Source of the DNA: Escherichia coli
Lineage (GTDB): Bacteria; Pseudomonadota; Gammaproteobacteria; Enterobacterales; Enterobacteriaceae
Length of the DNA: 64,000 nt
Reading direction: 5' to 3' (one strand)
NCBI GenBank assembly: GCA_025336685.1
Contig: GCA_025336685.1_4717.1
Below, in pieces: positions 4,416 to 62,309 of the stretch (its first letter is position 1; every line of letters starts with the position of its first letter). The notes below the pieces were generated by a model. It ran no database searches. It was not told the DNA's origin and worked only from the letters and a program-made list of their open reading frames with translations. The position numbers were made by a program, and so were the translations under genes.

Positions 4416-4447
4416 CCTTCCTCCAACCCAACAGGGAAGGAGGAAGG
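4416..4447 (-). terminator. conserved hairpin element, copy 1 (variant loop AACA)
   Basis: CCTTCCTCC-AA-CCC-AACA-GGG-AA-GGAGGAAGG immediately 3' of minus gene 4461..5354. Confidence 0.55.
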
Positions 4448-4460
4448 GATACAATGGTTA

Positions 4461-5354
4461 TTATTCGGAAACGTTGTAACCGAACACCGCTTTACCGTAG
4501 GTGTGAGTACCGTCAGCTAATGACAGCACCAGCACGTGGTTGTACGTAGCGTTAACACCCTTGTCGGTAGACTCGGTGGTAGCACCGTTGTAGACGAAAG
4601 TAGCCGTTTGCAGATTGGCTTTCAGCTCGGTGATGATCTCATCACCCACACCCGTCTGCTCTTTGATCAGCGTGGTCAGGTTACCCGCCAGGCTTTCATC
4701 GATCTTGGTTTCATCACTGGTAATAGCTTGTAAACCTGCGGTGTAGGTGCTGAAGTCTAACGGATAGGTTAACAGACGCGCTGAGGTCTTGGTACCATCG
4801 CCTTCATCAACGTAGGTTAACTTACCCAGGTTGGTAACCTTGATGATGTTAGCCAGATCCAGCGTGGTGTTATAAACTTTAACTTCAACGGAACCGTACC
4901 AAGCCAGCGAATCTTCTTTGGCCTGCAGGGTGATCGTCTGGATACCATGATCGTCGAAGGTAACCGGCGTAGCTAACGTATCGGCTTTGATGTCTTTCGT
5001 TTTATCTAAGAACTTCTCACCGGAAGGCGTGATCATACCGTAGCGTTGAGCTACAAGGTCAACCACGTCACCAATAGTGGTGTTAGCATTAACGTTAACG
5101 CGTACGGCGATCTTCTGGAACCACTTAGCCAGATCCAGACGATGATAGGTAACATCGCGGTCATTGAAGTAAGGTGTACCTTCACCAGGGCTAAGCGTTA
5201 AAGTTGCATCTGGAGCAGAATCGCTTTTGGATTTAAGAACGTATTTAAGGTCGGTGGGTTTGAAGTTGGCACCAGTGTCGGCGTTGAGTGTGTTAATCTC
5301 ATCAACGATAAGTTGCCAAGGTGTTTTTAAAGTAAGTGATACTTGAGCTGTCAT
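4461..5354 (-). CDS. hypothetical (probable virion) protein, paralogue family B
   Basis: 297-aa ORF, ATG with GAGGT RBS; shares the (Y/W)YxR(I/V/L)xLxxx aromatic block and overall size with 16415..17320, 18237..19088, 19099..20034. Confidence 0.7.
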   Translation of the reverse strand: MTAQVSLTLKTPWQLIVDEINTLNADTGANFKPTDLKYVLKSKSDSAPDATLTLSPGEGTPYFNDRDVTYHRLDLAKWFQKIAVRVNVNANTTIGDVVDLVAQRYGMITPSGEKFLDKTKDIKADTLATPVTFDDHGIQTITLQAKEDSLAWYGSVEVKVYNTTLDLANIIKVTNLGKLTYVDEGDGTKTSARLLTYPLDFSTYTAGLQAITSDETKIDESLAGNLTTLIKEQTGVGDEIITELKANLQTATFVYNGATTESTDKGVNATYNHVLVLSLADGTHTYGKAVFGYNVSE

Positions 5355-5497
5355 TTTCTACCTCTATGGTTGTTACATCACTCTCAAAAGATGTAAGTGT
5401 TTACAGAAATCAATATATTTTATATTAAATGTGAATATTATGGAGAACGACTCCGACTCTCCTTTTCGACCATCAAAAAATCAGAGGATACATAATC

Positions 5498-6040
5498 ATG
5501 GCCTTAGACTTTAACAAAGCAGCGAAATCCCTTCTGCTTGATCTGATCAACACCAAAGCAACCCGCGCACTGTCCGAAGAAGAACTGCAGTTCGGTACTC
5601 CGGCGGCATCTTCCGAAAATGCTAAGAACACCGTTATCCAGCTGAATGCTGCGGCTGAAGCAGAAAACCTGCAGGGTACTCAGCAGTTCTACTACGATCG
5701 TCTGGCTCTGTCTGACGTTTTCGCTGATGTAACCAGCGATGTTACTTTCGAACTGCCGCACGGTACTGACAGCATTAAGGCTTCTGAGCTGGTAAGCAAG
5801 CTGGTCACCAAGTTCGGTCTGGCTTCCCTGACCGGTGAAATCAATGAAGAAACCTTCCAGCTGTCCGCAGGTACTGTTGGTCAGGTAACCCTGACTGCGA
5901 TCGAGGGTGGTATGGTATATACCGGTACTCTGCAGGTTGCCCTGACCTACGCAGCAGCACCGAAAGACAATCTGGCAACCGTTCTGGCGGATAACGTAGC
6001 TGATGGCTTCGTGAAACCTGAAGTTGCTGTCGTTGGCTAA
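5498..6040 (+). CDS. Ala-rich small protein with strong codon bias (probable abundant structural or decoration protein)
   Basis: 180-aa ORF, ATG with AGAGGA RBS; near-exclusive use of preferred enteric codons (ctg, gaa, ggt, aac, ttc). Confidence 0.75.
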   Translation: MALDFNKAAKSLLLDLINTKATRALSEEELQFGTPAASSENAKNTVIQLNAAAEAENLQGTQQFYYDRLALSDVFADVTSDVTFELPHGTDSIKASELVSKLVTKFGLASLTGEINEETFQLSAGTVGQVTLTAIEGGMVYTGTLQVALTYAAAPKDNLATVLADNVADGFVKPEVAVVG

Positions 6041-6239: not shown

Positions 6240-6272
6240 CCCCTCCTCAGCCCTTATCGGGTTGGGGAGGGG
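6240..6272. terminator. conserved hairpin element, degenerate copy
   Basis: CCCCTCC-TCAG-CCC-TTATC-GGG-TTGG-GGAGGGG between convergent genes 5498..6040 and 6336..6971. Confidence 0.4.
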
Positions 6273-6335: not shown

Positions 6336-6971
6336 TTATTCAACACTGAAACCGTTCAAACAGATGGCTTCGTAACGTTTACGTTCACGGCGTTTGCGTG
6401 CCTGCCAACCGTAAATGAACTTCTCGTCTTTCTCACGACGTTCCGCTAATTCGATGTAATAGGTGCTCTGCATGTCCAGCATTGCATCGATGAGATAATC
6501 CTTACCGGTTGCGCCACGCTTAGCGATGTAGGCATCAAGAGCCGCCAGTGTTTTGGGACCCATTGCGCCATCAGCGTCGATATTTTTCCAGTAAGTTTGG
6601 CGGTTGTTCATGACGTTCAGATAACGCTGAAGGTTCTTAACCGGTACGGTTTTGCCTGCGTTGATACCCAGGTCAAAGAGACGATCAGCCAAGAACACGG
6701 AACGTTTCATGACCTCATCAAGCTTCATCTTATCCCAGAAGTGGGTCTTGTAGATGAAGAACGCCATTTCCGTGGTAAGGTTACGCATATTACCGTCCCA
6801 CCCGAATTTCGTTTTCAGCGTGGTTTTGTACTGATCCGCAAGCGCTTTCGTAATGCCGTGGTTCGTGATCCCACCAGAGTCATCGGGATCGTCGACGTAA
6901 CCTGCTTCGATGCTAGTTTTATCACGAATGATAAATTCGCAAGTAAAATCTTTTTCAGTAATCTTGGCCAT
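6336..6971 (-). CDS. endolysin, GH108-type peptidoglycan hydrolase with probable C-terminal PG-binding domain
   Basis: 211-aa ORF, GAGGAG RBS; N-terminal EAGYVDDPDDSGGITNHGIT matches the GH108 EGGYxxDPxDxGGxTxxGIT signature. Confidence 0.75.
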   Translation of the reverse strand: MAKITEKDFTCEFIIRDKTSIEAGYVDDPDDSGGITNHGITKALADQYKTTLKTKFGWDGNMRNLTTEMAFFIYKTHFWDKMKLDEVMKRSVFLADRLFDLGINAGKTVPVKNLQRYLNVMNNRQTYWKNIDADGAMGPKTLAALDAYIAKRGATGKDYLIDAMLDMQSTYYIELAERREKDEKFIYGWQARKRRERKRYEAICLNGFSVE

Positions 6972-15082: not shown

Positions 15083-16363
15083 ATGTATACATTGGTAAAA
15101 ACTTACGGATTACCCGTAGGTTCTGGCACGGCCTGGACAGCACTTGAGGCGGGTGAAAGTGTCCTGAGTACGTTGTTCTCAGCGTATCAAAAACTCAAGA
15201 TCCAGGTTCATGAAAGCTATGCTGACCAGCAACAAGTTATTGATCTGTACACATTTCAATCCGAGCTTCAAAACAGCAATGACACGCTCAATGCGTGGTT
15301 GAAAGCGAAATCGGATGCACATACCAACCTTCGAGGACAGCCTGGTGAGCTGTCGATTAAAACCCACAAGCTTTATTGCCATGACGTTATTACCGTAGGC
15401 TTTCTCCCTAAAGTCGGTAATAGTGGTTATCATCCGAGCAATGCGATCCCTGAGTCGGAACGTACCGATATCCTGTTGACGAAAGCGAATACGAATTACG
15501 AAAATATCGGCAAACATTGCTTGTTCACCGTAGGCGGTTATATTCATCCTCATGTTTACGGTAAAGACGTTGGCGTCTATATCCAGGGTGGGTTCGAGAC
15601 AGCACAGCGTAGCCAAGAAAACGATATCGGCATGATTGATTTTAGCCGTATCGGGAGTTTGGAAATCCACGCCATCACAGAAGAGATGATTGCTGATTCC
15701 ACGAAGCTCTTGCCGTATAAGGACGAGATGTACTTACGGCTACCACGTAAGGTCGCCGAAGATGAAACCGTTGCGCTGGTGTTCGGGGGATATCTACACC
15801 TTCTTGACGATTGTTACACGATCGTTAGTGACACGACGGCAAAAATAAACTGCAGAAACATGTTTCTGTATGAAAGATACTTCCGCTCCCGCAAATACCT
15901 TGATTTAACGTCTCTTGGTATTCTGTTGAACGAAGAAGACCCGCAGTCCGATATTGTTGCCAATCGTTTACTGTCTGATAAGACTTTAAAAGCATGGGTG
16001 ACGCATCCCTGCAGTTTCTGGGTGTATATCAAAGCAACATCGATTCAGGTTACACAAGAACCTTTACCACGAAGTGGCGTACCAGGACAATATTTCTTAG
16101 GTAAGAAACCGGAAGGACTGATTCGAGCCGATCTCGGTGAGTTACCGGCCTACGTGCAGACCTATGAAAAACCGTTATGGGTACTTCACTCACGCTGGGG
16201 GCTTCGTAAGAACATGTTGTTTGAAAACACATTGTACAAACATACACGCGTTAAGCGGCTTAACGATACGCCTTATCTTCACCAGGTCTGGTTGAAAACG
16301 CATGCGACGTTGCAGACAGTACATAAGCTCGAATTGATCGATTCCAGTCAGAAAAACAAATAA
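15083..16363 (+). CDS. hypothetical protein (426 aa)
   Basis: ORF with ATG and AGGGGG RBS; plus-strand island inside a minus-strand block. Confidence 0.7.
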   Translation: MYTLVKTYGLPVGSGTAWTALEAGESVLSTLFSAYQKLKIQVHESYADQQQVIDLYTFQSELQNSNDTLNAWLKAKSDAHTNLRGQPGELSIKTHKLYCHDVITVGFLPKVGNSGYHPSNAIPESERTDILLTKANTNYENIGKHCLFTVGGYIHPHVYGKDVGVYIQGGFETAQRSQENDIGMIDFSRIGSLEIHAITEEMIADSTKLLPYKDEMYLRLPRKVAEDETVALVFGGYLHLLDDCYTIVSDTTAKINCRNMFLYERYFRSRKYLDLTSLGILLNEEDPQSDIVANRLLSDKTLKAWVTHPCSFWVYIKATSIQVTQEPLPRSGVPGQYFLGKKPEGLIRADLGELPAYVQTYEKPLWVLHSRWGLRKNMLFENTLYKHTRVKRLNDTPYLHQVWLKTHATLQTVHKLELIDSSQKNK

Positions 16364-16373
16364 ACAAACATAA

Positions 16374-16405
16374 CCCTCCTCCTTCCCTTACGGGTTGGAG
16401 GAGGG
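16374..16405. terminator. conserved hairpin element, copy
   Basis: CCCTCCTCC-TT-CCC-TTAC-GGG-TT-GGAGGAGGG between convergent genes 15083..16363 and 16415..17320. Confidence 0.6.
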
Positions 16406-16414
16406 AATATGCTG

Positions 16415-17320
16415 TTATGCCACGTATAACGTTAGATAACCGTCGATGAGCGTATTCATAACACTGAGTTGAAGTACAACAGCTTTACGAGCGTCTGTAC
16501 GTACACCAAATGGTAGTGTTTTGAAATGCTCTGGATCGGCTATTACTCTCGCATTCTGCAAGTTGAGCGGTCCAGGCGTTGCCGACAATACCCAGCGATC
16601 GTTGGCCGTAAGACCATCGATCTCTTCAGAGAGACCCAATTGCAGCATGTTCATTTCTGCAATTAGCGCCTCTGATTGCATATCACCTGAGGTTAACGTA
16701 TACCCATCAGTAAGTGACGCTAGAACATCATCAGACATGAACCAGTTGTACGAAACAATAGCGCCCGGGAGTTTATCACTATCTCGATCGATGAGATAAT
16801 TCAACCCAGCCAACATATTGTTGCGAATGAGGTTGTTGAGGTCGTTATGTCCTGAAGTTAACTCAACAAGTAATTGACCAACCCATACTTGGTTACCAGG
16901 TTTAGGTGTTATCGCAACATGTATCGGTGATTTGGATTTATCCAGATCCGCGTCGACAATCTCGGTTTTATTGAGAAGGATACCGTACGTTGATGCTAAG
17001 ACAGGTAATATCTCAGAGACCTTGGTTAGTGTATCTAAGGTTTCGATCTCGATGGGCCAGCGGTGCTGTCCGCCAGGCCAAATACCCAGTTTACCAAGAT
17101 CGACGCGGTTATAATAGATGTCGACAGAGTTCACCAGCCCTGAACCCGGTTGGGGATGCACGGTTAACTTGCTGTTACGCTTGTACCCTGTGCTTTCAGA
17201 AGCCTCACCGATAACCAGTTTATCCAGCGTTACGCCTCGAGCGTCGAAATCGCTATGCTTTCGAATCAGCCGAAAGAGGATTTCTTTCGATTCTAACCCT
17301 AGGATTTCACTGTACTCCAT
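16415..17320 (-). CDS. hypothetical (probable virion) protein, paralogue family B
   Basis: 301 aa, ATG with AGGGGTG RBS; YYNRVDLGKL block shared with family B. Confidence 0.7.
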   Translation of the reverse strand: MEYSEILGLESKEILFRLIRKHSDFDARGVTLDKLVIGEASESTGYKRNSKLTVHPQPGSGLVNSVDIYYNRVDLGKLGIWPGGQHRWPIEIETLDTLTKVSEILPVLASTYGILLNKTEIVDADLDKSKSPIHVAITPKPGNQVWVGQLLVELTSGHNDLNNLIRNNMLAGLNYLIDRDSDKLPGAIVSYNWFMSDDVLASLTDGYTLTSGDMQSEALIAEMNMLQLGLSEEIDGLTANDRWVLSATPGPLNLQNARVIADPEHFKTLPFGVRTDARKAVVLQLSVMNTLIDGYLTLYVA

Positions 17321-25439: not shown

Positions 25440-25468
25440 ACGGACGTAAAAAAATAACACATAGTTAA

Positions 25469-25503
25469 CCTTCTCCCCAACCCGATGAGGGAAGGGGAGA
25501 AGG
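25469..25503. terminator. conserved hairpin element, variant copy (loop GATGA)
   Basis: CCTTCTCCCC-AA-CCC-GATGA-GGG-AA-GGGGAGAAGG between convergent genes 22533..25439 and 25516..25797. Confidence 0.55.
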
Positions 25504-25515
25504 GCTATGCGCTAT

Positions 25516-36757: not shown

Positions 36758-36772
36758 TTATGACCGCGGTGG

Positions 36773-39117: not shown

Positions 39118-39202
39118 GTTCGGCTCCTTGATTACGATAAGGATGATTGCGGTTTTGTGGTGCTGGTAGGGCCCTAAACAAAGGAACCCTACCAATATTA
39201 GG

Positions 39203-40126: not shown

Positions 40127-41494
40127 TTAAACGGTTGGGCGAACGGTATTGTCTTTTTCTGGTGCGATCCATAACGTGACCGTACCATGACATGTCCATT
40201 GTGGTTCACGTACAGAAGAACCTGCCATCGTCACAGCGCAATCGGTACGCATAATGACCCCGTATGCTTCGCAGAGATTGTTATCCTGCATCCACACAAC
40301 TTTAGCAGGCATGCCGGGATACAACAAGTCCATGTTTGCGTATTCCCACACCAACTGCATCGTTCTACCACGTAATCCGGCAGTATTGCTTAATTCACGC
40401 CATCGGTTATCGGTTACGCGTCCCATCCCTTTCGCCACCTTCACGTTATCGCTACGCTCTTCAGTTACGTACTCGCTAACGTTTACAGTACGGCTGATTA
40501 TTGTATCGCCCCCTTTTGATAATGTCATCCCCTGACTCATCTGACTTGCCGAAACAAAACGCCCACCCGCATTACCTAACAACGAAGCCGCGTTATTGAC
40601 GTCGCTTACCGACGCCCCTCTCGTACATGCAATTTCCACGTATTTGTCACGATTGATCCAGGTCTTGTCCATGCCTGGAAACATATCGGCAGGATAGTTG
40701 TAAAAGATCGCCGTGCGTCGACCGTCAGAGAAACGGGTTTCGTCGTAGAGAGGATAAATATACAGATACGGGGATTGATAATAACAACCGACATCTGCTG
40801 AATAAATACCGACCTGGTTCTGGATTTTATCTACAAGATCCATTGCGTTGGTACCGTGCGGAAGAATAAGCAACTTGAATGGGTTGTCGTTATTCGGTGC
40901 AACAATATCCACACCCTGCATTTTGAATCCGGTGTCAGCTTCAACCGCAGAAAGTATCTTGCTGAATTCAAGGCGCAACACATCCAGCACTTTCGATCCG
41001 GTATAGTTCTCACCGGTTTCCGATTGCATGAAGCTTTCAAGAACAGGATCGAACAGTTGAAATTGAAGGTCGACCATTTGTTCGTAGTCTTTCTTCGAAG
41101 AATCGGTTGCGGTACGTTCGTCGGTAGCAGACATACGACTGTCTACGGTTGTTAAACAGACCGCCCGGTAGACATAAGCCTGTGCGGCATCGTCTACGGT
41201 TTGGCGTTGTCCGCGCATCAGGCTGTACGCCTGCACGATGATGCGCATTTTAAGTTGTTGTTGGTACGGTAGAATGTATTTTCCGTAACTGCCTGGTGGG
41301 AACTTTACAGAGATATAAAGTTCATCCCCTGCGTTACGTTCATAGTCTCGATACGTGTGGACTTGAGTCACTAAAGGAACAGACACCGTCATTGACGGCG
41401 TGATTAGTTCCGCGGTGACTTTATACGCAACAGCAACAGCTTCCTGCGCAAACGTACCGATATACCGTCCTAACGGCGTCTGTTTGTAATCCAT
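40127..41494 (-). CDS. hypothetical protein (455 aa)
   Basis: ATG with GGGGT RBS. Confidence 0.7.
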   Translation of the reverse strand: MDYKQTPLGRYIGTFAQEAVAVAYKVTAELITPSMTVSVPLVTQVHTYRDYERNAGDELYISVKFPPGSYGKYILPYQQQLKMRIIVQAYSLMRGQRQTVDDAAQAYVYRAVCLTTVDSRMSATDERTATDSSKKDYEQMVDLQFQLFDPVLESFMQSETGENYTGSKVLDVLRLEFSKILSAVEADTGFKMQGVDIVAPNNDNPFKLLILPHGTNAMDLVDKIQNQVGIYSADVGCYYQSPYLYIYPLYDETRFSDGRRTAIFYNYPADMFPGMDKTWINRDKYVEIACTRGASVSDVNNAASLLGNAGGRFVSASQMSQGMTLSKGGDTIISRTVNVSEYVTEERSDNVKVAKGMGRVTDNRWRELSNTAGLRGRTMQLVWEYANMDLLYPGMPAKVVWMQDNNLCEAYGVIMRTDCAVTMAGSSVREPQWTCHGTVTLWIAPEKDNTVRPTV

Positions 41495-45343: not shown

Positions 45344-45431
45344 CGCAGATTCCTGTTTGAAAGATAAGATATCACATGATGGTCGACAGCATAAAGCCCA
45401 CCCCGAAGGGCGGGCTGTTTATGCGTACGGG

Positions 45432-48400
45432 TTACTTGTAGGCACCACAATGTGCTTTGATGAGGAAAAGCACCGCTTGCATCGGTTTATTGAACTGTTG
45501 CCATAACGTCAATGCCGGATGGAACAACCAATCTTCCAGGCCAAGAACAATACCGTAGTTAACGACATTATTAACATCGTTCTCAACGTTGAGTTCGCTA
45601 TCCAGGAATTTATCGATTGAACGCAGGGCCTGCATGGCGTTGTCGGCAATAAGCCACGCTTCATGCGCTTCACGAGCCGCACGCAGCAATGCTTCCAGTT
45701 CGCCGGTGCTGGCTACCGGTAACTCCTCACTGGTGAGGTCGTCAGAAACCGTAAACTGACGGTTGATACCAGTGTAGATCCACTGCATCAGTTTCGCTGC
45801 TTCCTCGTTCGGGTTGTTACGCGTTGTCGCATAGGTCGCGCTCATTTTCACGATATGCGTTTCACCAAGATACGCTTTGGACCCAACGCCTTTACGATCG
45901 CTGTCTTTCCACGGTTGTACGGTAGCGACCATGAGCTTATCCCATTTCTGAATAGGAATACGCTTCAGACCAACAACCGATCCGGCGGATGTTTCGGACT
46001 GGTTGCTCTTCCGCACTTCGCTGAGCTCACGATCGATAGCAACGATTAATTCACGCGTCATGTTACCAAGCATTTTGATTTCACCCAACGCAGCGATGAG
46101 CTTCTTCACATCGGTAATAGGTTCACCACCGATGGTAAGATGACGGATGAAACGTTTCAGAATAATCCGTTCTGCTGCTGGGTTACCACGACGCGCTTTA
46201 GCCAACGCTTGCTGTGTTTCGGCGAACAGCTTATCCCATGGAGCCGTAGCGGCGGTATAGTAACGGTGGTTGGTTTCAATCCAGTTACCGATACGGTTGA
46301 CCGCACTCTTAACGGTATCCATGAACCCTTCCATCGCAATTTCGGTGGCTTCGACGTTACCCTGGAAGTTATCAGGACCGATCTCGCGTGCCGCTACCAG
46401 AATACCTTCCACTGCACTCACCGCGTGACGACCGATAGCCAGATTTCGCTGCGCTTCTTCAGCACGCTCAACGAATTCCACTACCGCAGGATCGTCAACG
46501 ATTTCCGCCTCGGCAACAACACGTGTACCTGCATCGCCTTCCAGTGTCTCGATAGTGACAACCGGATCGTTTTCACCAGCAACATCCTGGTACTCTTCCT
46601 GTTTGAGTTCGCCGTTATCGGCCGCTGCGACAGCGGTGAGTATACGGACGGTAACATCACCGAGTTCTTTCGCAGCGAATCCGTAGACGGTACATGCTGT
46701 TGTCGCAAAGTTCATCAGTGTGCGTGTGCGTTTAACGATGTAGCCAACGCCGTAGTCACTACCGTTCTTATCGATGTCGCGGATTAACCGTTCAGCTGTC
46801 TCCTGAAGTTGTGTAGCTGCTTTCAGAAGGTCTTCGTCAAACAGTTTCGTTGACGCATCGATCAGCATATCGACGCTAACGTTAGACGGTACGGCATCAT
46901 CCTGCTGTTTCATGGCGCTAAGTTCATCACGGAACTTACGAATACCGTCTAAAGCGGCGTCGGCGCTATGTCCGAACGCGGCCACGCCAGACATTGTTGT
47001 TGCTGTCAGCATGTCCGTATCAGCGTTTGGACTTTCGCCTTCTTTAAGATCCTTCAGCTGGTCGAAGAACTTACGGGATGCTTCAGCGATACGTTTGCTG
47101 TCTTTTACCGCGTTTACGATTTTATCAACCGATTTAGCGTCGTTCGCAAGCAGCGTGTCGAGTTTGTTCCATTCGATGTCGACTTTCTTTTCATCCGAAG
47201 TATTACTCGGTGGAGGAAGCAGTTTCATCACTGGTGCTGTGCGTTGTTCTTTGGTGAGCTTACCAGCCTTCTCTTCGATTTTCTTTTTATTAACACCGAA
47301 AAGTTTTCTTAGGCGTGCCACGATTGCTTTTAAGAACTTCACAACCGCTTCGTAAACCGATTTCAGAATCTGTTTAAAGCGACCTGGCTGCTTTTCCCCG
47401 TCTTCCAGATTGAGATCGCTATTTAGTGCGATATCAAGCTGTTTGTACGATTCCATGATGTATTCGTCTTTGATTTCAGGACGAATCTCGAAGCTTTCCA
47501 TCGGACCCTCAGCCGGACGGAATTCCATTTTCAGTTCGCCTTGCAGAGTAGGGTCGACAATGGCGATAGCTTCACCCTGACCATCAGCGTTAAAGCGCTC
47601 AGCGTAACGAGTACGACGAACAATAACACTCTTATCCCCATCAAGACGACGTACCACCATGGTGCCAGGAATGTACGGTTGTTCTGTTTCAATGACGGTT
47701 ACATCTGTTTCACCTTCACCGAGAATAACAGAAGTGCGCTGTTCAACAACAGGAACATCTAATACACCGCGGGCTTCCAGCTCTTGATGAATTTCGAACG
47801 ACTCTTGTTTCAGATCTTCATCTTCTTCGTTTTCGTCGTCTTCATCGTCACCTTTGGTGGTTTTGGTGTCGGTAGCATCAGCATCCGTGTCTGCGTTGGT
47901 AGCTTCTTCGGACGCAGGTTCGGTGGTGCCGTCCTCGGTAGGCGTTTCATCAGCGTTATCGACGTCAACATCACCTTGCAGTTCTGTTTCCTGAGCAACT
48001 GCTTCGGCTTTCTGCTCACCGGTGTTACCGTCATTAGCGTCGACAGCAGGTTGTTCGTCAGCGACGGTATCTTCAACCTTTTCTACTTTCTCCACGACAC
48101 GTTTAATCACGGTGACTTTGATGGGTTCTTCCGTTGTTTTGGTTTCTGGTGTTGCGTCGGCTACCGCAGGTGCTGTTTCAACAACAGGTTCTGCTTTTTC
48201 CGGTTCGACGACACTACCTTTAACACCTTCGGTGGTTTCTGCAGGTTGCGCTGCCTGTTCGATTTGTGCCGGATTGGTCGGATCGATGGCATTAGCCGCA
48301 TCCTGAATCTTGTTCTTCAGGTTGTCACGGTCAGCGCTAACGGTCGGGTCATTGGTCACTTTCGGTGCCGGTGTTTCGGTCGGCGCGTTTGCCGGATACG

Positions 48401-48797
48401 GGTTCTTCGGCTCTTCACCAGGTGCGGTTGGTACCGCGATCAGAACGAACGGTTGAACATCGTTACCGTCTTCCATGGTCACGCCACCGTTGCTCGGCGT
48501 GAAACGGATTCGCAAGCTACCATCAATAGGACGGGTAACAATAACAGCACGTACGACATCCTCACCGTTTTCATCCGTGCTACGAATCACACGAACGGCG
48601 TCATCAACAGTAGCCCCTTCCTCGAGCGTATCTGATTCGATCGTCGCTTCGATGCTGTCTGGTCGTGCCGCTGTAGGTAATGCGATCACTTGCTCTTCTT
48701 TATCGGTAGAAAGCGTTGCTTTGACTTCGATAGGTGTATCGCCGCTTTCCAGGTTAAGATGCGACTTACGCATCAGATCAGCTAACGATTTTTTCAT
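45432..48797 (-). CDS. very large virion-type protein with acidic T/P/E/A-rich low-complexity N-terminal third
   Basis: 1121 aa, ATG with AGAGGA RBS; residues about 120-330 low complexity (PTETPAPKVTNDPTV..., ...GDDEDDENEEDEDL...). Confidence 0.8.
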   Translation of the reverse strand: MKKSLADLMRKSHLNLESGDTPIEVKATLSTDKEEQVIALPTAARPDSIEATIESDTLEEGATVDDAVRVIRSTDENGEDVVRAVIVTRPIDGSLRIRFTPSNGGVTMEDGNDVQPFVLIAVPTAPGEEPKNPYPANAPTETPAPKVTNDPTVSADRDNLKNKIQDAANAIDPTNPAQIEQAAQPAETTEGVKGSVVEPEKAEPVVETAPAVADATPETKTTEEPIKVTVIKRVVEKVEKVEDTVADEQPAVDANDGNTGEQKAEAVAQETELQGDVDVDNADETPTEDGTTEPASEEATNADTDADATDTKTTKGDDEDDENEEDEDLKQESFEIHQELEARGVLDVPVVEQRTSVILGEGETDVTVIETEQPYIPGTMVVRRLDGDKSVIVRRTRYAERFNADGQGEAIAIVDPTLQGELKMEFRPAEGPMESFEIRPEIKDEYIMESYKQLDIALNSDLNLEDGEKQPGRFKQILKSVYEAVVKFLKAIVARLRKLFGVNKKKIEEKAGKLTKEQRTAPVMKLLPPPSNTSDEKKVDIEWNKLDTLLANDAKSVDKIVNAVKDSKRIAEASRKFFDQLKDLKEGESPNADTDMLTATTMSGVAAFGHSADAALDGIRKFRDELSAMKQQDDAVPSNVSVDMLIDASTKLFDEDLLKAATQLQETAERLIRDIDKNGSDYGVGYIVKRTRTLMNFATTACTVYGFAAKELGDVTVRILTAVAAADNGELKQEEYQDVAGENDPVVTIETLEGDAGTRVVAEAEIVDDPAVVEFVERAEEAQRNLAIGRHAVSAVEGILVAAREIGPDNFQGNVEATEIAMEGFMDTVKSAVNRIGNWIETNHRYYTAATAPWDKLFAETQQALAKARRGNPAAERIILKRFIRHLTIGGEPITDVKKLIAALGEIKMLGNMTRELIVAIDRELSEVRKSNQSETSAGSVVGLKRIPIQKWDKLMVATVQPWKDSDRKGVGSKAYLGETHIVKMSATYATTRNNPNEEAAKLMQWIYTGINRQFTVSDDLTSEELPVASTGELEALLRAAREAHEAWLIADNAMQALRSIDKFLDSELNVENDVNNVVNYGIVLGLEDWLFHPALTLWQQFNKPMQAVLFLIKAHCGAYK

Positions 48798-51204: not shown

Positions 51205-51310
51205 TTGGGACTCCTACGTAGGGAAATCTTGGCGGGTGATCATGTCCGCCATTTACCTTCTGAACCGTTGATTCAGAAGTCAAAAGATAACCGGATACCG
51301 GCGTCATAAA

Positions 51311-51342
51311 CCTTCCTCCTTCCCTTACGGGTTGGAGGAAGG
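51311..51342 (-). terminator. conserved hairpin element, copy
   Basis: CCTTCCTCC-TT-CCC-TTAC-GGG-TT-GGAGGAAGG 3' of minus gene 51353..52642. Confidence 0.6.
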
Positions 51343-51352: not shown

Positions 51353-52642
51353 TTATGCTTTTTCGGTCGCTGCGTTGAAGTATTTCGCAGCAGCAAATAC
51401 AGCATCCGCATACTGACGTACAGAGGCACGGAGGATCTTAGTTCCTAATACAGAGCTTAAACGAGCCATTTCTGTTACAGCTGTGATATAAGGACGTACG
51501 GTTTCACGATCAGCCTCAGGTAACTTGTCGAGCATTTCGCCCCACTTCGTTTTGATCTGCATTCCGTTGAGTTTAGCGTCTCGTCCTACAGAGCGCGCCA
51601 AACTTTCAACTTTATGCAAATACGTCGGTTCCACCATACGGAATGCCTTCAGATATGCAGTCAATGCGCTTTTCAGCTCATTCCCATCGTGGAAAATATT
51701 CGCATTTTCGATTTTATCTGTTACGGTGTCAACAACTTCAATATGAACATCCTTCACCAAAGCACATGCTTTAACGACATCCTTCTCTTTTTCTAGCGCA
51801 TCCAACCCTTTAACGACATATTGTTTTCCACCACTTTCTGGAAGTCTGAACGCCCTCAGTGCGGCTTTAGTGGCCTGAAGATACTCGTCTAGGACACGAT
51901 CAAGCGTTGTTAAATCAGTTAGGACATTAATGTCGTAGTTGATATCGCCGATCTTAGTAAATAAGAAATCTGATATCGTCGCACTTGCAGCCAGTTGTTC
52001 GATATGTTTGCTAACGGATGCCGCATCAACAGATTTTGCGTTCGGGAACATATTAACCATATTCCCGGTAGGCTTCTCTAGTTGTTTGATCTGACGTTCC
52101 CCTTTATTGACTTCGGATGCAATTTTGGTGATCTCAGCATAAGCCAGAACGAGATTCTTGAACAACATCTGGAACAGTTTGAACAGTTGCTCAGCAATAT
52201 TTGCAATGATTACCCAAACTGCGTATAACGCTTGTGCTGCGCGTTCTTTAAAGCCTTCCAGTACGATAGCCTGTCCTTCCACTAATTTATCATTAGCCTG
52301 GAACATGTCTTCATCAGACATCCCCAGGTTTGCTGCTGATGTCGAAGCGATCTGACGGATAAGTGCGACGTCGCTCACACGTGCTTCCGAGATCGTTGGT
52401 GCGATCATGTACGCTGTATCTTCCAGCGTTGCTGAGGTACGCACTGCAATTTCAGCCAGTTCGCTGGATTCATCGATTGTCTCGTCGGTATGTCGAATCA
52501 CCAACTCAACTTCACCCTCTTCAATTTCTGCGTTAGGATCGTGTTGCTCCGTCGGAATCGTCGCGAGAAGATCTTCGGCGCTGAGCAATGCGAGTTCGAA
52601 TGCGTTTTTATTGACGTTGTCAAAAAGAGAAATACGTGCCAT
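51353..52642 (-). CDS. head internal (inner-body-like) protein candidate, paralogue family D
   Basis: 429 aa, ATG with AAGGAA RBS; SDVALIRQIASTSAANLGMSDEDMF block; acidic N-terminus with repeated (A/L)xE. Confidence 0.75.
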   Translation of the reverse strand: MARISLFDNVNKNAFELALLSAEDLLATIPTEQHDPNAEIEEGEVELVIRHTDETIDESSELAEIAVRTSATLEDTAYMIAPTISEARVSDVALIRQIASTSAANLGMSDEDMFQANDKLVEGQAIVLEGFKERAAQALYAVWVIIANIAEQLFKLFQMLFKNLVLAYAEITKIASEVNKGERQIKQLEKPTGNMVNMFPNAKSVDAASVSKHIEQLAASATISDFLFTKIGDINYDINVLTDLTTLDRVLDEYLQATKAALRAFRLPESGGKQYVVKGLDALEKEKDVVKACALVKDVHIEVVDTVTDKIENANIFHDGNELKSALTAYLKAFRMVEPTYLHKVESLARSVGRDAKLNGMQIKTKWGEMLDKLPEADRETVRPYITAVTEMARLSSVLGTKILRASVRQYADAVFAAAKYFNAATEKA

Positions 52643-53968: not shown

Positions 53969-54016
53969 GTGTTGTCTCCAGTAATGATTCAAAAGATAAA
54001 CCTGAGCGGCATAGAA

Positions 54017-54048
54017 CCCTCTCCCAACCCGTAAGGGAAGGGAGAGGG
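54017..54048 (-). terminator. conserved hairpin element, copy
   Basis: CCCTCTCCC-AA-CCC-GTAA-GGG-AA-GGGAGAGGG 3' of minus gene 54071..55396. Confidence 0.6.
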
Positions 54049-54070
54049 AATATGTCAGTTTATTAACTGA

Positions 54071-55396
54071 TTACTGCTGTGCTGCGTCAGCCGGTTTCTC
54101 GGCCGCCTGGCCGCCGTACTCTTTCAGCATTTTAGCAGCGCCATCCAGGACAGCGTTACCTGCCTGAACACCGTATTTCATCAGACCAGTCTGTGGGTTC
54201 ACGTAGCAGGAACGTGCGTCTTTCAGTGCAGACAGTACAGCTTGAACACGCTGTTTTTCCTGAGCGGAAACTTCGCCTTTCTTAGACAGATCAGCTTCCA
54301 TTGCGTCGCCGAATTTAACAGCGTCTTTGAAGCCCTGGGATTTCTTACCGATGTTGCCTTTCAGCGCCAGCAGTTTGTCAGCCAGTACTTCAACACCGCT
54401 AACCGCAGCGGCCAGCTGATTCAGGGACAGGACGGTAGCTTCAACTTCTTTTGCTTCACCGGAGCGTTCCCAGGTTACTTTACCATCGTTGGCTTTGAAA
54501 CCCCAGCCCGCAGGACCAGCAACGTCAGCAATCGCCGGAGCGTTCAGTTTATCGGCGTACTCGGTGTGAGATTTAGCAACAACAGTGTTGACGAATTTAT
54601 CAGCACGATCGTCAGCAGCCTTCATTGCTTTCTCGAAGGTGTCGGCGATTTTGGTCGCACCGGTAACCAGATCGTCGCCACCGATGTAACCTGAAATGCC
54701 ACTACCCAGGGTAACTTTGGCATTTTTAGCAGCGCCTTTACGCTTGGCGATCATTTCTTTCAGTTTAGCAGCGCGTGCTTTCAGTTTGGTCGCGCCGTCG
54801 AAGATGCGATCCATGAACTTCACGAAGGTTTCCCAGGAAGTTTTCAGGAAGTTCTTGATGGTTGCCCACAGTTTCTGCCACCATTTTTGTTCTTCCAGGA
54901 AGATCATGTTGGTTGCATCGTAACGGGAAGCAGAACCACCGAAGCTTTCGAAGGACGGCATGGTTTCCGGCAGTTTGAAACCGATAGTACCACACAGGCG
55001 TTTCAGGTTACGCATGTGTTCCTGAGCGGTTTGTGCAGACATACCACCGTCTTTCAGGTAGCTTTCGGTTGCAACAACGGTTTCCGTCAGTTCATCCATG
55101 GCTTCATCCATGGCTTCTGCGGTTTCGTCGTCTTTTGCAATTTCGATAACAACAGCGTCAACCTGCTCGATATCGCCACGAACTTCGATAGCCAGTTCGG
55201 TTTCAGCTGCAGTATCTTCAGCGATTTCAGCGCGTTCGGTCAGTTCAGCTACAACGGTTTCATCTGCTGCTGCTGCGGCATCAGCTGCCGGTTCTGCTTC
55301 AACGGTTGCCGCTGCATCCGGATCGATCTCAGCAGCCAGTTGAACCAGCTGTGCGTTAGATGGATTTGCGACAAGACGATCAAAAATAGAAGGCAT
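54071..55396 (-). CDS. abundant Ala/Glu-rich head protein candidate (family D-like; scaffold or internal protein)
   Basis: 441 aa, ATG with AAAGGAA RBS; strong codon bias; N-terminal 100 aa acidic with many AxE motifs. Confidence 0.75.
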   Translation of the reverse strand: MPSIFDRLVANPSNAQLVQLAAEIDPDAAATVEAEPAADAAAAADETVVAELTERAEIAEDTAAETELAIEVRGDIEQVDAVVIEIAKDDETAEAMDEAMDELTETVVATESYLKDGGMSAQTAQEHMRNLKRLCGTIGFKLPETMPSFESFGGSASRYDATNMIFLEEQKWWQKLWATIKNFLKTSWETFVKFMDRIFDGATKLKARAAKLKEMIAKRKGAAKNAKVTLGSGISGYIGGDDLVTGATKIADTFEKAMKAADDRADKFVNTVVAKSHTEYADKLNAPAIADVAGPAGWGFKANDGKVTWERSGEAKEVEATVLSLNQLAAAVSGVEVLADKLLALKGNIGKKSQGFKDAVKFGDAMEADLSKKGEVSAQEKQRVQAVLSALKDARSCYVNPQTGLMKYGVQAGNAVLDGAAKMLKEYGGQAAEKPADAAQQ

Positions 55397-60377: not shown

Positions 60378-61711
60378 ACAAAACCGGAGTACCGATCACG
60401 GGAACACAGGTAGAGCTGGTGCTTCAAGATGCGGGTTATGGGATGGTAACCACTATCGACAACGTAACCAATCGTTCGTTCCTGGCAACCCGAGATTTAC
60501 CGCAATTGAGCGACAGCGTGCCGCAAGCCGGTTCGTTGATGGGGTCTTTCTATACTTCAGCCGCAGCGTTGGTGAAAAGTAAGTTTGTCGCCGATAACGG
60601 CGATCGTATCACGATTAAACCGGACTGTCTGTATCGCGACAGTAACGGAAGTATCGCACTGTTGTCGGACGATGAAATTGACCGTATTAATGCAGGTAAC
60701 TCTGATGCGAAGTTGAACGCGGTAAACAACGCCATGTTGTTTTACAGCCCGTTTCATTACGTGTTGGATGCGACAAGCGATTTCGACATTCATGCTTATT
60801 ACCTGGATGCTCCTAAGATCGGCACACAAGCATTCCTCGACGCGAACGAGACAATCCCGTTAACCGCTATGGTGACCGGATACCGTCTGGATCGTATCGC
60901 TGAAGGATATCGTCTAAGCCTCATTGTAGAAGGTAACGACGCATGGAAGGCGCTCGACGATAAAAACGTGCACGTGCAGCTGGGGTTCAATCCGCGGGGT
61001 GAGGGTGATTATGCGACGATGTTAGCATCACCGACAACCGATGAACAAGGTCGTCGTTTGTTCACCTTCGATATCACCACGAATTATGATTTCACGCGAA
61101 TCCTGGCCGATGATTCCACGGCGTATGAACCATATATCGCATTGACCTCTTTCTCGATGTATGAATCGACACCGCGGGATTACTGGGCATCACTGCAGCA
61201 GTATTTGGAAATCTTCCATGTGGTGACGGATTATGCGCCGGAAGATGTCGACGGTATTTTACACAGTGCTTCCGATAATTACCTGGTTAAGAAACTTACG
61301 CTTCAAAATGGGTATTGTTTCTACCGTGAACGTCTCACCGCAACCTTTGGTTATGATCTGGATGGTCTTTGGATGCGCTCTCGTACGGTAGCCTCGGAGA
61401 TTACGTATAAACGTTACACCGAGAACATTCCGTGGGTGTATGAAGAAGATATTCCAGCGACGGATGAGACCGGTTCGGTTATCATTGAACAAGGTGATGA
61501 CGGTACGCTGTCAGTTAAATACCTGCATCGTAAAGGTGACCCGAAATTAAACAGTGATGGAAGCCAAGCCTATCGTTATCTGAAAGGCGACATCATGAAA
61601 GATAATTACGGTAATCCGATCCTGTCGATGAACGTGAAGTTCTGCGTAGCCTGGACATGTTCTTTATTGATGCGTCGTATCTGCTTTAGCGAACGATACG
61701 GACGTGATTGA
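60374..61711 (+). CDS. hypothetical protein (445 aa)
   Basis: GTG start overlapping the upstream TGA stop (GTGA). Confidence 0.65.
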   Translation: MNKTGVPITGTQVELVLQDAGYGMVTTIDNVTNRSFLATRDLPQLSDSVPQAGSLMGSFYTSAAALVKSKFVADNGDRITIKPDCLYRDSNGSIALLSDDEIDRINAGNSDAKLNAVNNAMLFYSPFHYVLDATSDFDIHAYYLDAPKIGTQAFLDANETIPLTAMVTGYRLDRIAEGYRLSLIVEGNDAWKALDDKNVHVQLGFNPRGEGDYATMLASPTTDEQGRRLFTFDITTNYDFTRILADDSTAYEPYIALTSFSMYESTPRDYWASLQQYLEIFHVVTDYAPEDVDGILHSASDNYLVKKLTLQNGYCFYRERLTATFGYDLDGLWMRSRTVASEITYKRYTENIPWVYEEDIPATDETGSVIIEQGDDGTLSVKYLHRKGDPKLNSDGSQAYRYLKGDIMKDNYGNPILSMNVKFCVAWTCSLLMRRICFSERYGRD

Positions 61712-62256
61712 GTATCGTAACACGATTCCTACGCAGCTTATCGGAGTGGATCAAGAACGATATCATCACATTCAGGAATTTCTGTTATGAGGAAACAGAG
61801 ATTTCACTGTATCCTAAACAATCGTTGGGGTATGTGGATGTTATTGTCGAAAACGGATTGGAAACAACGCTTCCTGCCGCTCTATCGTTCAACGTGACGC
61901 TTTACTTACCAGCTAAGCAATACGCGGATTTGGATCTCCGTCAAGTCCTTCAAGCGATGGTATCGAAAGTCATCAACGAATGCTTAACGTCCCGTACGGT
62001 GGCTAAAGCAGAAATGATCGCGATGATTCGTGAGGAGGGTGGTGACGACATCCTTAACGTTGAAATCGATGATTTTGGACCAGGTAAGAACCTCAGTGTT
62101 TATACTGCGAAGAACGATGGTGTTCGCTGCGCGGTGAAGAAAGAGCTTTATGTGAAAGCGGATGGTATCTTGTCCGTACGTGAAGCGATCGATGTAAGTT
62201 TTGTGAAACATGCACAAAGCAACAGTTCGGCATTAGCGCAAGGCCTTCGTGTCTAA
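61708..62256 (+). CDS. hypothetical protein (start uncertain)
   Basis: 182-aa ORF starting at TTG overlapping the upstream stop; first 40 codons rare-codon-rich; an RBS-preceded ATG exists in the +1 frame near 61787. Confidence 0.5.
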   Translation: MSIVTRFLRSLSEWIKNDIITFRNFCYEETEISLYPKQSLGYVDVIVENGLETTLPAALSFNVTLYLPAKQYADLDLRQVLQAMVSKVINECLTSRTVAKAEMIAMIREEGGDDILNVEIDDFGPGKNLSVYTAKNDGVRCAVKKELYVKADGILSVREAIDVSFVKHAQSNSSALAQGLRV

Positions 62257-62277
62257 AACAAAATAGCATGAGCATAA

Positions 62278-62309
62278 CCCTCCTCCAACCCGTAAGGGAA
62301 GGAGGAGGG
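62278..62309. terminator. conserved hairpin element, canonical copy
   Basis: CCCTCCTCC-AA-CCC-GTAA-GGG-AA-GGAGGAGGG between convergent genes 61708..62256 and 62319..63980. Confidence 0.6.

What the first reader, a model, noticed from the sequence alone, without database searches (positions are those of the whole stretch)
4416..62309. Ten-copy conserved 32-nt hairpin element with GNRA tetraloop at gene 3' ends
A near-identical element CCCTCCTCC-AA-CCC-GUAA-GGG-AA-GGAGGAGGG (or its reverse complement with UUAC loop) recurs at about 4416, 6240, 16374, 25469, 31932, 36726, 40091, 51311, 54017 and 62278. Every copy is intergenic and immediately 3' of a stop codon, often at convergent gene junctions. 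Stem variants (CCCTCTCCC/GGGAGAGGG, CCTTCCTCC/GGAGGAAGG) are compensatory, so the structure is under selection. Flanks are also conserved (CATAA upstream, AATATG/GATAC downstream), making the unit a palindrome of about 45 nt. Most copies lack a canonical U-tract, so this is not a simple intrinsic terminator. Candidate roles are bidirectional terminator, RNA processing or stability site, binding site for a phage protein, or recombination hotspot.
Basis: seen in the sequence. Interest (0 to 1): 0.8.

Follow-up and report, generated by a model that had tools for sequence, protein, structure and literature searches.

The report
Jumbo-phage bidirectional terminator hairpin family
The ten repeated hairpins are real and are most likely this phage lineage's version of the sequence-conserved transcription terminators already mapped in phiKZ-like jumbo phages, so they are largely ordinary, apart from some unexplained evolutionary quirks.

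Summary
All ten copies exist at the stated coordinates, where chance predicts none. Each folds into a two-tier hairpin (-23 to -35 kcal/mol): a 9-bp C/U-rich:G/A-rich outer stem, a 2x2 A.A (or U.U) internal loop, an inner CCC/GGG stem and a tetraloop.

The window is about 93% identical to E. coli jumbo phage Goslar (Chimalliviridae). The element occupies 5 of 5 convergent gene junctions. It also follows five minus-strand genes, including the major capsid gene.

On 11 of 15 sides where a gene ends, TATG-YYGT follows the hairpin, with the G at +5 to +7 (+10 at one site). Published ONT-cappable-seq mapped the same layout at 61 phiKZ terminators (CCYCCCC-loop-GGGRRGG-BY-TTATKYYGT) and in 201phi2-1. 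I found it again in phiKZ and in Erwinia phage Ea35-70. Goslar's GenBank record already labels some copies "putative terminator".

This is therefore a lineage-specific, mostly bidirectional variant of a known terminator type, not a new class. The GNRA loop is not conserved: loops drift, and the 32-nt core flips orientation between close relatives.

Three things remain unexplained:
- the invariant internal loop;
- a genome-strand bias in core orientation;
- the match between the TATG box and the tetranucleotide that phiKZ's non-virion RNA polymerase reads at late promoters.

The parts
4406..4447 (-). Copy 1. Hairpin 4416-4447 (arms CCTTCCTCC/GGAGGAAGG, loop AACA on +). TATG box on the - strand at 4410-4413. 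Lies 13 nt after the stop of gene 4461..5354(-).
   Evidence: -25.7 kcal/mol, z -6.0. Same sequence in 8 of the 9 orthologous copies recovered.
6241..6271 (.). Copy 2, atypical. A 13-bp stem (CCCTCCTCAGCCC / GGGTTGGGGAGGG) with a TTATC loop. Convergent junction between 5498..6040(+) and 6336..6971(-). Flanks carry TTATA, not TATG.
   Evidence: -34.9 on +, -27.4 on -. Annotated 'putative transcriptional terminator' in Goslar at 17603-17637.
16369..16411 (.). Copy 3. CATA 16369-16372, hairpin 16374-16405 (TT-TTAC-TT on +), TATG 16408-16411. Convergent junction 15083..16363(+) / 16415..17320(-).
   Evidence: The Goslar orthologue 27746-27777 is annotated as a terminator. The core is inverted relative to Goslar and 7 other genomes.
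25460..25509 (.). Copy 4. CATA 25460-25463, hairpin 25470-25502 (arms CTTCTCCCC/GGGGAGAAG, pentaloop GATGA), TATG 25506-25509. Convergent junction 22533..25439(+) / 25516..25797(-).
   Evidence: -31.5 / -32.9 kcal/mol.
31925..31960 (-). Copy 5, variant with 1-nt bulges. Hairpin 31931-31960; on the - strand it is followed by TTTATGCCGTTTAT. Lies 96 nt after the stop of the major capsid gene 32057..34279(-).
   Evidence: (PhiKZ_MCP, E 1.6e-217). The phiKZ capsid gene is likewise followed by a motif terminator.
36726..36762 (.). Copy 6. Hairpin 36726-36757 (AA-GTAA-AA on +), TATG 36759-36762. The - side has AACCGTACAATC + T9 instead of TATG. Convergent junction 35090..36700(+) / 36773..37099(-).
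   Evidence: Flipped in UViG_3300045988.
40091..40122 (-). Copy 7. Hairpin (arms CCCTCTCCC/GGGAGAGGG, TT-TTAC-TT on +), 4 nt after the stop of 40127..41494(-). The - side box is TATA here but TATG in Goslar and other relatives.
51305..51342 (-). Copy 8. Hairpin 51311-51342 (arms CCTTCCTCC/GGAGGAAGG). The - strand has TTTATGACG. Lies 10 nt after the stop of 51353..52642(-).
   Evidence: core flipped relative to Goslar.
54010..54054 (.). Copy 9. CATA 54010-54013, hairpin 54017-54048, TATG 54051-54054. Tandem (-) junction, 22 nt after the stop of 54071..55396(-). Symmetric although only one gene ends here.
62273..62315 (.). Copy 10. CATA 62273-62276, hairpin 62278-62309, TATG 62312-62315. Convergent junction 61708..62256(+) / 62319..63980(-).
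   Evidence: -29.5 / -28.6 kcal/mol.
45386..45415 (-). Terminator outside the family but with the same layout: GCCCGCCC-TTCG-GGGTGGGC + TTTATGCTGT, after the 1121-aa gene 45432..48797(-). It is the only window match to the published phiKZ 30-nt motif.
   Evidence: The Goslar orthologue is annotated as a terminator at 55080-55101.
1737..1763 (-). Terminator outside the family: GGGGACA-TCAT-TGTCCCC + TTATGCCGCG, after gene 1781..2671(-).

Best explanation
The elements are factor-independent transcription terminators read by the phage's own multisubunit RNA polymerases. Most of them work in both directions.

Mechanism. The nascent RNA folds into a very stable two-tier hairpin just past the stop codon. 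The hairpin is followed within 2-3 nt by a short A/U-only stretch ending in G (UAUG) and then YYGU. This stretch takes the place of a bacterial U-tract. The polymerase pauses there with only a weak 5-6-bp A:U hybrid left, and releases the transcript.

Because the outer arms are an exact palindrome and CATA/TATG boxes lie on both sides, one 45-nt module stops both converging transcripts.

Shown here: anatomy, folding, position relative to genes, the direction-dependent TATG box, and identity of layout with phiKZ and Ea35-70. Shown by others: RNA 3' ends map to this motif in phiKZ and 201phi2-1. Inferred: that the Goslar-clade copies terminate, where exactly the 3' end lies, and which polymerase is involved.
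For: - The window is a Goslar relative carrying a phiKZ-type capsid gene.
- Copies sit at 5/5 convergent junctions, 5/23 tandem gaps and 0/4 divergent gaps. In Goslar, 13 of 20 convergent junctions carry a family or variant copy.
- TATG follows the hairpin on 11/15 sides where a gene ends and on 2/5 sides where none does.
- Unrelated hairpins that Goslar's record calls terminators are also followed by T(T)TATGYYGT. Seven of the 8 intergenic TATGYYG sites in the window lie directly after a stable hairpin, against none of the 22 in-gene sites.
- Published data: 61 mapped phiKZ terminators share BCCYCCCCHWWDGGGRRGGBYTTATKYYGT. The 201phi2-1 motif A (n=59) resembles it, 15 of its terminators are bidirectional, and 8 were validated in vivo.
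- My scans: phiKZ 19/49 strong hairpins are followed by TATG (1.4 expected); Ea35-70 12/61 (1.1 expected). The phiKZ convergent junction PHIKZ129/130 has the same CATAA-hairpin-TTATG layout, and the capsid gene is followed by a terminator in both phages.
- Goslar's GenBank record already annotates several copies as putative terminators.
Against: - No 3'-end data exist for Goslar or this phage; the published Goslar RNA-seq is gene-level only.
- There is no canonical U-tract, and the stem-plus-T-run scan misses the copies.
- Four of the 15 gene-ending sides lack TATG (6241 on both sides, 36726-, 40091-).
- Plain hairpin stability does not explain the invariant 2x2 internal loop and inner CCC/GGG stem.
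- The core's orientation is biased to one genome strand (59 of 67 orthologues) whatever the strand of the gene, which hints at a DNA-level constraint or at concerted evolution.
- A SPN3US segment shows hairpin + TTAT followed by a T-run rather than G, so the TATG box is not universal in the family.
Confidence: 0.8

Rival explanations
1. Promoter-mimic termination, a refinement of the main explanation rather than a replacement. [quoted passage not shown] This pauses the elongating enzyme with its active site at the G, just as the hairpin closes 5-7 nt behind.
For: - The phiKZ late-promoter consensus is TATG with the start at the G, and every single substitution strongly reduces transcription.
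- Cryo-EM places non-template TATG in a pocket of the beta-like subunit GP123.
- The box sits at a tight spacing, G at +5 to +7, in the window, Goslar and phiKZ.
- TATG/CATA is the 2nd-3rd most depleted tetranucleotide in the window (0.67) and is depleted in phiKZ (0.76), against 0.89 in a T4 control.
- I found no paper linking the two motifs.
Against: - SPN3US terminators use TTAT plus a T-run, yet TATG is depleted there too.
- Two divergent intergenic regions of the window contain no TATG at all, so TATG may not be this phage's general promoter.
- Terminators carry an extra conserved YYGT that late promoters lack.
- UUAUG may simply be a degenerate U-tract.
- Eight 201phi2-1 terminators work with host polymerase in vivo.
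Confidence: 0.2
2. Terminator-promoter cassette. The TATG after the hairpin is a working late promoter that restarts transcription for the next gene. At convergent junctions it would fire antisense RNAs.
For: The tetranucleotide is the same as the late promoter. In tandem contexts a gene follows 24-207 nt downstream. Antisense RNAs are reported in phiKZ (text quoted).
Against: - At 5 convergent junctions both boxes point into the 3' end of the opposing gene.
- The model late promoter P119L has an AT-rich upstream region and no hairpin, and a GC-rich stem should hinder melting.
- A separate promoter-like motif (ATTACCTAGGTGA) lies 40-60 nt downstream of copies 5 and 7.
Confidence: 0.1
3. RNA 3' stem-loop acting as a stability or recognition tag. 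It would protect late mRNAs from 3' exonucleases, or be bound by a phage protein, for example for export from the phage nucleus. This could act in addition to, or instead of, termination.
For: Sequence is unusually well conserved across more than 60 copies in about 10 genomes, including an invariant internal loop. mRNA export from the phage nucleus is unexplained.
Against: - The core flips between close relatives, which changes the RNA from AA/GUAA/AA to UU/UUAC/UU at the same gene.
- Loops drift.
- eCLIP of the RNA-binding protein ChmC in PhiPA3 found binding near start codons and no motif.
- Any stable terminator hairpin also stabilises 3' ends, so this is not a separate origin.
Confidence: 0.08
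4. DNA-level palindrome: a REP- or MITE-like mobile repeat, a recombination hotspot, or an orientation-dependent genome signal. Any terminator activity would be incidental.
For: - Arms co-vary with flanks in sub-families, so units of at least 45 nt appear to have been copied.
- The same loop variant recurs at several sites within one genome, which suggests gene conversion.
- The core inverts.
- Orientation is biased to one genome strand.
Against: - Copies sit at orthologous sites in all genomes, with few presence/absence differences.
- Homology breakpoints between the window and Goslar are not at the hairpins.
- There is no match in 5,426 complete E. coli genomes.
- Outside Goslar-like genomes the pattern occurs only as an unrelated perfect palindrome.
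- The direction-dependent TATG box and the 5/5 convergent placement are features of transcription.
Confidence: 0.05

Closest known systems
Conserved intrinsic terminator motif of phiKZ (Putzeys et al. 2024, PMC10914365) and motif A or A/B of 201phi2-1 (PMC11512511)
   Same: - C/T-rich 5' arm and G/A-rich 3' arm.
- Hairpin followed after 1-3 nt by TTATG-YYGT.
- Intergenic, after gene ends; bidirectional at convergent pairs.
- Follows the capsid gene in both phages.
- The host phage belongs to the same family and has its own polymerases.
   Different: - The hairpin is two-tiered: 9 bp, a 2x2 mismatch, 3 bp and a tetraloop, against a 7-8-bp stem with a 4-5-nt loop.
- Copies are near-identical over 32-45 nt.
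- Family copies do not match the published 30-nt pattern; the only window match is a non-family terminator.
- No 3'-end mapping exists for this lineage.
Canonical bacterial Rho-independent (intrinsic) terminators, including bidirectional ones
   Same: A GC-rich hairpin just past the stop codon. An A-rich upstream and T-containing downstream flank give two-way symmetry. Similar free energy or stronger.
   Different: No run of 4 or more U; AAUAUG or UUAUG stands in its place. There is a fixed sequence rather than only a fixed shape. The polymerase is presumed to be the phage's, acting inside the phage nucleus without host factors.
PeSL (promoter-early stem-loop) cassettes of T4-type phages
   Same: A repeated, sequence-conserved intergenic stem-loop terminator module within a large lytic phage genome, with signs of copy-to-copy homogenisation.
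   Different: No sigma-70 early promoter is attached; sigma-70-like matches fall below shuffle expectation. There is no association with cassette boundaries. This comparison rests on my own knowledge of PeSLs and was not tested here.
REP / BIME extragenic palindromes of enterobacteria
   Same: Short imperfect palindromes, repeated, extragenic, often between convergent genes, found in either orientation.
   Different: Absent from E. coli genomes. Confined to one phage clade. Carries a direction-dependent TATG-YYGT box shared with unrelated terminator hairpins.

Membership tests
phiKZ-type conserved terminator (Chimalliviridae) | Pyrimidine(C)-rich 5' arm and purine(G)-rich 3' arm forming a stable hairpin | tested here: met
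   All 10 copies: CCCTCCTCC/GGAGGAGGG and variants; -23 to -35 kcal/mol.
phiKZ-type conserved terminator (Chimalliviridae) | Hairpin followed within a few nt by TTAT-K-YYGT | tested here: met
   TATG on 13/20 sides (P about 5e-19) and on 11/15 gene-ending sides. Typical tails are TTATGTTTGT, AATATGCTGTT and TTTATGCCGTT.
phiKZ-type conserved terminator (Chimalliviridae) | Literal match to the published 30-nt motif BCCYCCCCHWWDGGGRRGGBYTTATKYYGT | tested here: not met
   With up to 3 mismatches there is one hit, 45386-45415(-), which is not a family copy. Family hairpins are longer and two-tiered.
phiKZ-type conserved terminator (Chimalliviridae) | Located after gene ends; bidirectional at convergent gene pairs | tested here: met
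   5/5 convergent junctions, 4-96 nt from stop codons. Same layout at phiKZ PHIKZ129/130.
phiKZ-type conserved terminator (Chimalliviridae) | RNA 3' ends map to the element during infection | not testable with these tools
   No 3'-end data for Goslar-like phages were found. The supplementary tables of the phiKZ and 201phi2-1 studies are not held.
phiKZ-type conserved terminator (Chimalliviridae) | Host genome is a phiKZ-like phage encoding its own multisubunit RNA polymerases | tested here: met
   PhiKZ_MCP in the window. About 93-94% nt identity to Goslar, whose record lists several RNA polymerase beta/beta'-like genes. The polymerase genes themselves lie outside the window.
Canonical bacterial intrinsic terminator | U-tract (at least 5 T in 8 nt) starting 0-2 nt after the stem | tested here: not met
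   None of copies 8-10 is reported by the stem-plus-T-run scan of 44001-64000; total matches are at chance, 22 against 21.6.
GNRA-tetraloop RNA motif | Loop conserved as G-N-R-A on the transcribed strand | tested here: not met
   Loops include GTCA, ATCA, AACA, AGCA and ATTA. Orientation flips, so minus-strand genes often carry UUAC.
REP/MITE-like mobile palindrome | Many copies in host or unrelated genomes; presence/absence polymorphism; no fixed relation to gene ends | tested here: not met
   No match in E. coli genomes. In 2.9 million viral contigs only 3 Goslar-like genomes carry it. Metagenome hits are Goslar-like genomes or an unrelated perfect palindrome. Sites are orthologous.
Rfam families | Match to any curated RNA family at gathering score | tested here: not met
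   0 matches in the whole window.

The most novel reading that the evidence does not exclude
The TATG box 5-7 nt after the hairpin may be read during elongation by the same non-template-strand pocket of the phage's non-virion RNA polymerase that recognises TATG at late promoters. Termination would then be a promoter-mimic pause coupled to a hairpin. One tetranucleotide would mark both the starts and the ends of late transcripts, and would be purged elsewhere in the genome.
Probability: 0.2. Interest if true: 0.7.

Novelty: new variant of a known kind. Interest (0 to 1): 0.4.

Why it matters
For annotation, this gives Goslar-like phages a simple and specific rule for transcription-unit ends: a stable hairpin followed by TATG-YYGT. 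It recovers terminators that standard U-tract predictors miss. About half of the copies are unannotated in the Goslar record.

For mechanism, the same layout occurs in Phikzvirus, Agricanvirus and Goslarvirus (tested here) and, according to the literature, in Serwervirus. That points to a termination signal tuned to the phage-encoded polymerases, which work inside the phage nucleus without host factors. The match between the TATG box and the late-promoter tetranucleotide gives a concrete in vitro experiment, using the recombinant non-virion polymerase that already exists.

The frequent inversion of the core between genomes that are 80-98% identical is a clean natural example of small-palindrome flipping and concerted evolution in a phage.

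Tried and rejected
- **Shine-Dalgarno plus start codon reading** (GGAGGAGGG-AAT-ATG, and CAT as a minus-strand start). Rejected: at convergent junctions both flanks lie 3' of genes, and the ATG is out of frame with, or far from, the next gene.
- **Host REP element.** No match in 5,426 E. coli genomes.
- **Known RNA family.** No Rfam hit.
- **Recombination or cassette boundary.** The blastn blocks between the window and Goslar break at 3866/4066, 9480/11415 and 38247/39972, not at hairpins.
- **GNRA as a selected feature.** Rejected.
- **Canonical terminator scan.** It does not detect the copies.
- **TATG as the general promoter of this phage.** Not supported: non-hairpin intergenic TATGs are few, and two divergent regions have none.
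- **TATG depletion as a family-specific signal.** Only weakly informative: it is also seen in SPN3US, which lacks the TATG box, and I used only one control genome, T4.
- **3'-end positions in phiKZ and 201phi2-1.** Supplements are not held, and Ceyssens et al. 2014 could not be retrieved under the PMC id I tried, which I recalled from memory and did not verify.
- **Wetland and peat metagenome hits to my degenerate pattern.** These are a different object, a perfect 14-bp palindrome with no TATG and no similarity to Goslar.
- **My first sliding-window fold scan** used too lax a threshold and was not used beyond spotting a few other intergenic hairpins.

Full report
**Observation.** The 32-mer with up to three mismatches hits four times, against 0.00 expected. 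A structure-based scan looked for an outer 9-bp stem, a short internal loop, an inner CCC/GGG stem and a loop of 4-6 nt. It returns exactly the ten copies plus one unrelated in-gene hairpin.

Folded as RNA on either strand, each copy adopts the same two-tier hairpin. Free energies run from -22.8 to -34.9 kcal/mol and z-scores from -3.8 to -6.8, and none of 200 shuffles does as well. I aligned 17 distinct copies from four related genomes. Seven of the 12 stem pairs change on both sides, 96.6% of cells pair, and no shuffle of 500 reaches the observed covariation score.

**What the window is.** A 10-kb piece is 92.6% identical to Escherichia phage vB_EcoM_Goslar, and the long collinear blocks are 93-94% identical. 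ORF 32057..34279(-) is a phiKZ-type major capsid protein (E 1.6e-217). The sequence is therefore a Goslar-like, nucleus-forming jumbo phage (Chimalliviridae). It is not identical to Goslar or to either of the two Goslar-like IMG/VR genomes.

**Gene context.** With a hand-curated gene list, the element occupies 5 of 5 convergent junctions, 5 of 23 tandem minus-strand gaps of at least 15 nt, and 0 of 4 divergent gaps. Distances to the nearest stop codon are 4-96 nt. One copy follows the capsid gene. In Goslar, a family or variant copy lies at 13 of 20 convergent junctions, by my reading of the annotation.

**The flanks.** Its G lies 5-7 nt after the stem, occasionally up to 10 nt.
- It is present on 13 of 20 sides in the window, against a 1.7% background (P about 5e-19), and on 31 of 42 sides in Goslar.
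- It is present on 11 of 15 sides where a gene ends and on 2 of 5 sides where none does.
- The tail continues as YYGTT(T)AT.
- Goslar hairpins of unrelated sequence that the GenBank record calls terminators carry the same tail, for example GCCTGTCC-TTCG-GGGCAGGC-tttttatgctgtt.
- Of the 8 intergenic TATGYYG sites in the window, 7 lie directly after a stable hairpin. None of the 22 in-gene sites does. Two of the 7 are extra terminators outside the family, at 45386-45415(-) and about 1737-1763(-).

The TATG-YYGT tail is therefore a general 3' module of this phage's terminators, not part of a mobile repeat.

**Comparison with what is known.** Putzeys et al. 2024 mapped 133 termination sites in phiKZ by ONT-cappable-seq. 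They found that 61 predicted intrinsic terminators share 5'-BCCYCCCCHWWDGGGRRGGBYTTATKYYGT-3', a stem-loop followed by a TTAT region, and that 6 are bidirectional between convergent genes. The 201phi2-1 study found 132 termination sites, 15 of them bidirectional. Its motif A (n=59) resembles the phiKZ motif, an A/B combination gives an elongated hairpin, and eight terminators worked in vivo.

I fetched 50 kb of phiKZ and found eight matches to the motif. One follows the capsid gene. One sits at the convergent PHIKZ129/130 junction with the layout CATAAt-GCCCTCCC..GGGAGGGC-TTATG, the same architecture as here.

A generic scan for strong hairpins followed by TATG within 0-5 nt gave:

| Phage segment | Hairpins with TATG | Expected by chance |
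|---|---|---|
| phiKZ | 19 of 49 | 1.4 |
| Erwinia phage Ea35-70 | 12 of 61 | 1.1 |
| Salmonella phage SPN3US | 1 of 74 | 0.9 |

In SPN3US the hairpins are followed by TTAT and a T-run instead.

Goslar's own record annotates several of the orthologous copies as "putative transcriptional terminator", for example 27746-27777, 17603-17637 and 93445-93476. It leaves others unannotated. The Goslar genome paper used ARNold and does not describe the repeat family.

**Best explanation.** These are the Goslar clade's version of the phiKZ-type terminator, mostly acting in both directions. The evidence that this motif marks RNA 3' ends comes from other phages. For this lineage, termination is inferred. 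I put confidence at about 0.8.

The copies do not fit the canonical bacterial definition. A stem-plus-T-run scan of 44-64 kb reports none of the three copies there and finds such sites only at chance frequency. They also do not match the literal phiKZ 30-mer, because the hairpin is longer and two-tiered; the only window match is a terminator outside the family. I therefore classify the family as a new variant of a known kind.

**What is different or unexplained.**

*1. The internal loop is fixed but the tetraloop is not.* The 2x2 A.A (or U.U) internal loop and the inner CCC/GGG stem are invariant in essentially all copies. The tetraloop drifts: GTAA, GTGA, GTCA, GGAA, ATCA, AACA, AGCA, ATTA. 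The GNRA idea is therefore not supported.

*2. The core flips.* Because the outer arms are an exact palindrome, the 32-nt core can invert without touching the flanks, and it does. The window differs from Goslar at 16374, 40091 and 51311. Other Goslar-like genomes from viral and metagenome collections differ at 36726, 40091, 51311 and 54017.

*3. Orientation is biased to one genome strand.* The AA-RNNA-AA form is on the window's plus strand in 59 of 67 orthologues, whatever the strand of the gene being ended.

*4. There are signs of copying between sites.* Arms and flanks co-vary in sub-families. The same loop variant recurs at several sites within one genome. Both suggest gene conversion among copies.

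The flips argue against sequence-specific recognition of the RNA loop. They also weaken "compensatory change" as proof of selection on RNA, since arm-to-arm correction in DNA would give the same pattern.

*5. TATG is also the phiKZ late-promoter consensus.* Transcription starts at its G, and the beta-like subunit GP123 holds non-template TATG in a pocket. TATG/CATA is the second or third most depleted tetranucleotide in the window (0.67 of a second-order Markov expectation) and in Goslar (0.63). Values elsewhere are 0.76 in phiKZ, 0.62 in SPN3US, 0.82 in Ea35-70 and 0.89 in a T4 control.

This suggests, but does not show, that the elongating phage polymerase is paused at the box by its own promoter-recognition pocket while the hairpin closes behind it.

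Several observations argue against it:
- SPN3US lacks the G.
- Two divergent intergenic regions of the window contain no TATG.
- Terminators have an extra YYGT that promoters lack.
- The model late promoter P119L has an AT-rich upstream region and no hairpin.

I found no paper connecting the two motifs. I give this reading about 0.2.

**Rivals.**
- A restart-promoter role for the box is unlikely, because at convergent junctions both boxes point into the opposing gene. A separate promoter-like motif (AYATTACCTWSRTGA) lies 40-60 nt downstream of copies 5 and 7.
- An RNA stability or recognition tag cannot be excluded, but it is weakened by the flips.
- A mobile or recombination element is not supported. 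Sites are orthologous and homology breakpoints are elsewhere. The element is absent from E. coli genomes. In 2.9 million viral contigs only three Goslar-like genomes carry it. Metagenome hits outside Goslar-like genomes are an unrelated perfect palindrome.
- No Rfam family matches anywhere in the window.

**Verdict.** The element is a lineage-specific variant of a published terminator type. It comes with a useful annotation rule and three small open questions: the invariant internal loop, the strand-biased but flipping orientation, and the TATG coincidence.

Noticed in passing
window 3792-3806(-), 31874-31888(-), 40032-40046(-): A promoter-like motif, AYATTACCTWSRTGA (ATATTACCTAGGTGA and similar), occurs three times exactly, always intergenic on the minus strand upstream of genes. 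Two occurrences lie 40-60 nt downstream of hairpin copies 5 and 7. It resembles the phiKZ middle-promoter element AAanTTACc. With up to 2 mismatches the count is not above chance (3 against 1.45).
   Followed up: partly
window 3710-4460: A 751-nt AT-rich stretch has no convincing ORF; Goslar also leaves it unannotated. Its middle (3866-4066) is not homologous to Goslar. It contains a C/G-rich hairpin near 4275-4300(-). One relative carries an extra hairpin-family copy next to the homologue of about 3840.
   Followed up: partly
window 38247-39972: A window-specific 1.7 kb segment with two minus-strand genes (38215..39195 and 39203..39976) is replaced by about 40 nt in Goslar. It lies just downstream of copy 7, whose minus-strand TATG box reads TATA in the window only.
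   Followed up: no
window 59262-62256; 17336-18220; 34429-35050: Three single Goslar ORFs (Goslar_00063, _00032, _00042) appear as two or three ORFs in the window. The three pieces of _00063 abut by 4-nt overlaps and the two of _00042 overlap by 29 nt, while the two pieces of _00032 are separated by a 69-nt gap. These could be real splits, pseudogenes or assembly frameshifts.
   Followed up: no
whole window; Goslar genome: TATG/CATA is the second or third most under-represented tetranucleotide after CTAG (observed/expected 0.63-0.67 under a second-order Markov model). It is also depleted in phiKZ and SPN3US segments, and less so in a T4 control (0.89).
   Followed up: partly
loci L048, L051, L054, L056, L058, L060-L064, L088, L099, L102-L104, L106-L108 (wetland/peat metagenome contigs): An unrelated repeated perfect palindrome, CCYTCCCCCTTCCC-TTAA-GGGAAGGGGGARGG, has G-rich flanks, no TATG box and no similarity to Goslar. 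It matched my degenerate pattern only because TT pairs with AA in it.
   Followed up: no
window 44001-64000: Sigma-70-like promoter matches are fewer than in shuffles (15 against 25.2 +/- 5.5), and canonical hairpin-plus-T-run terminators occur at chance. Both fit a phage that does not use the host polymerase.
   Followed up: no
window 518-563: An intergenic hairpin, GGAAGGGAA-TATGT-TTCCCTTCC (-19.1 kcal/mol), carries TATG inside its loop rather than after the stem.
   Followed up: no
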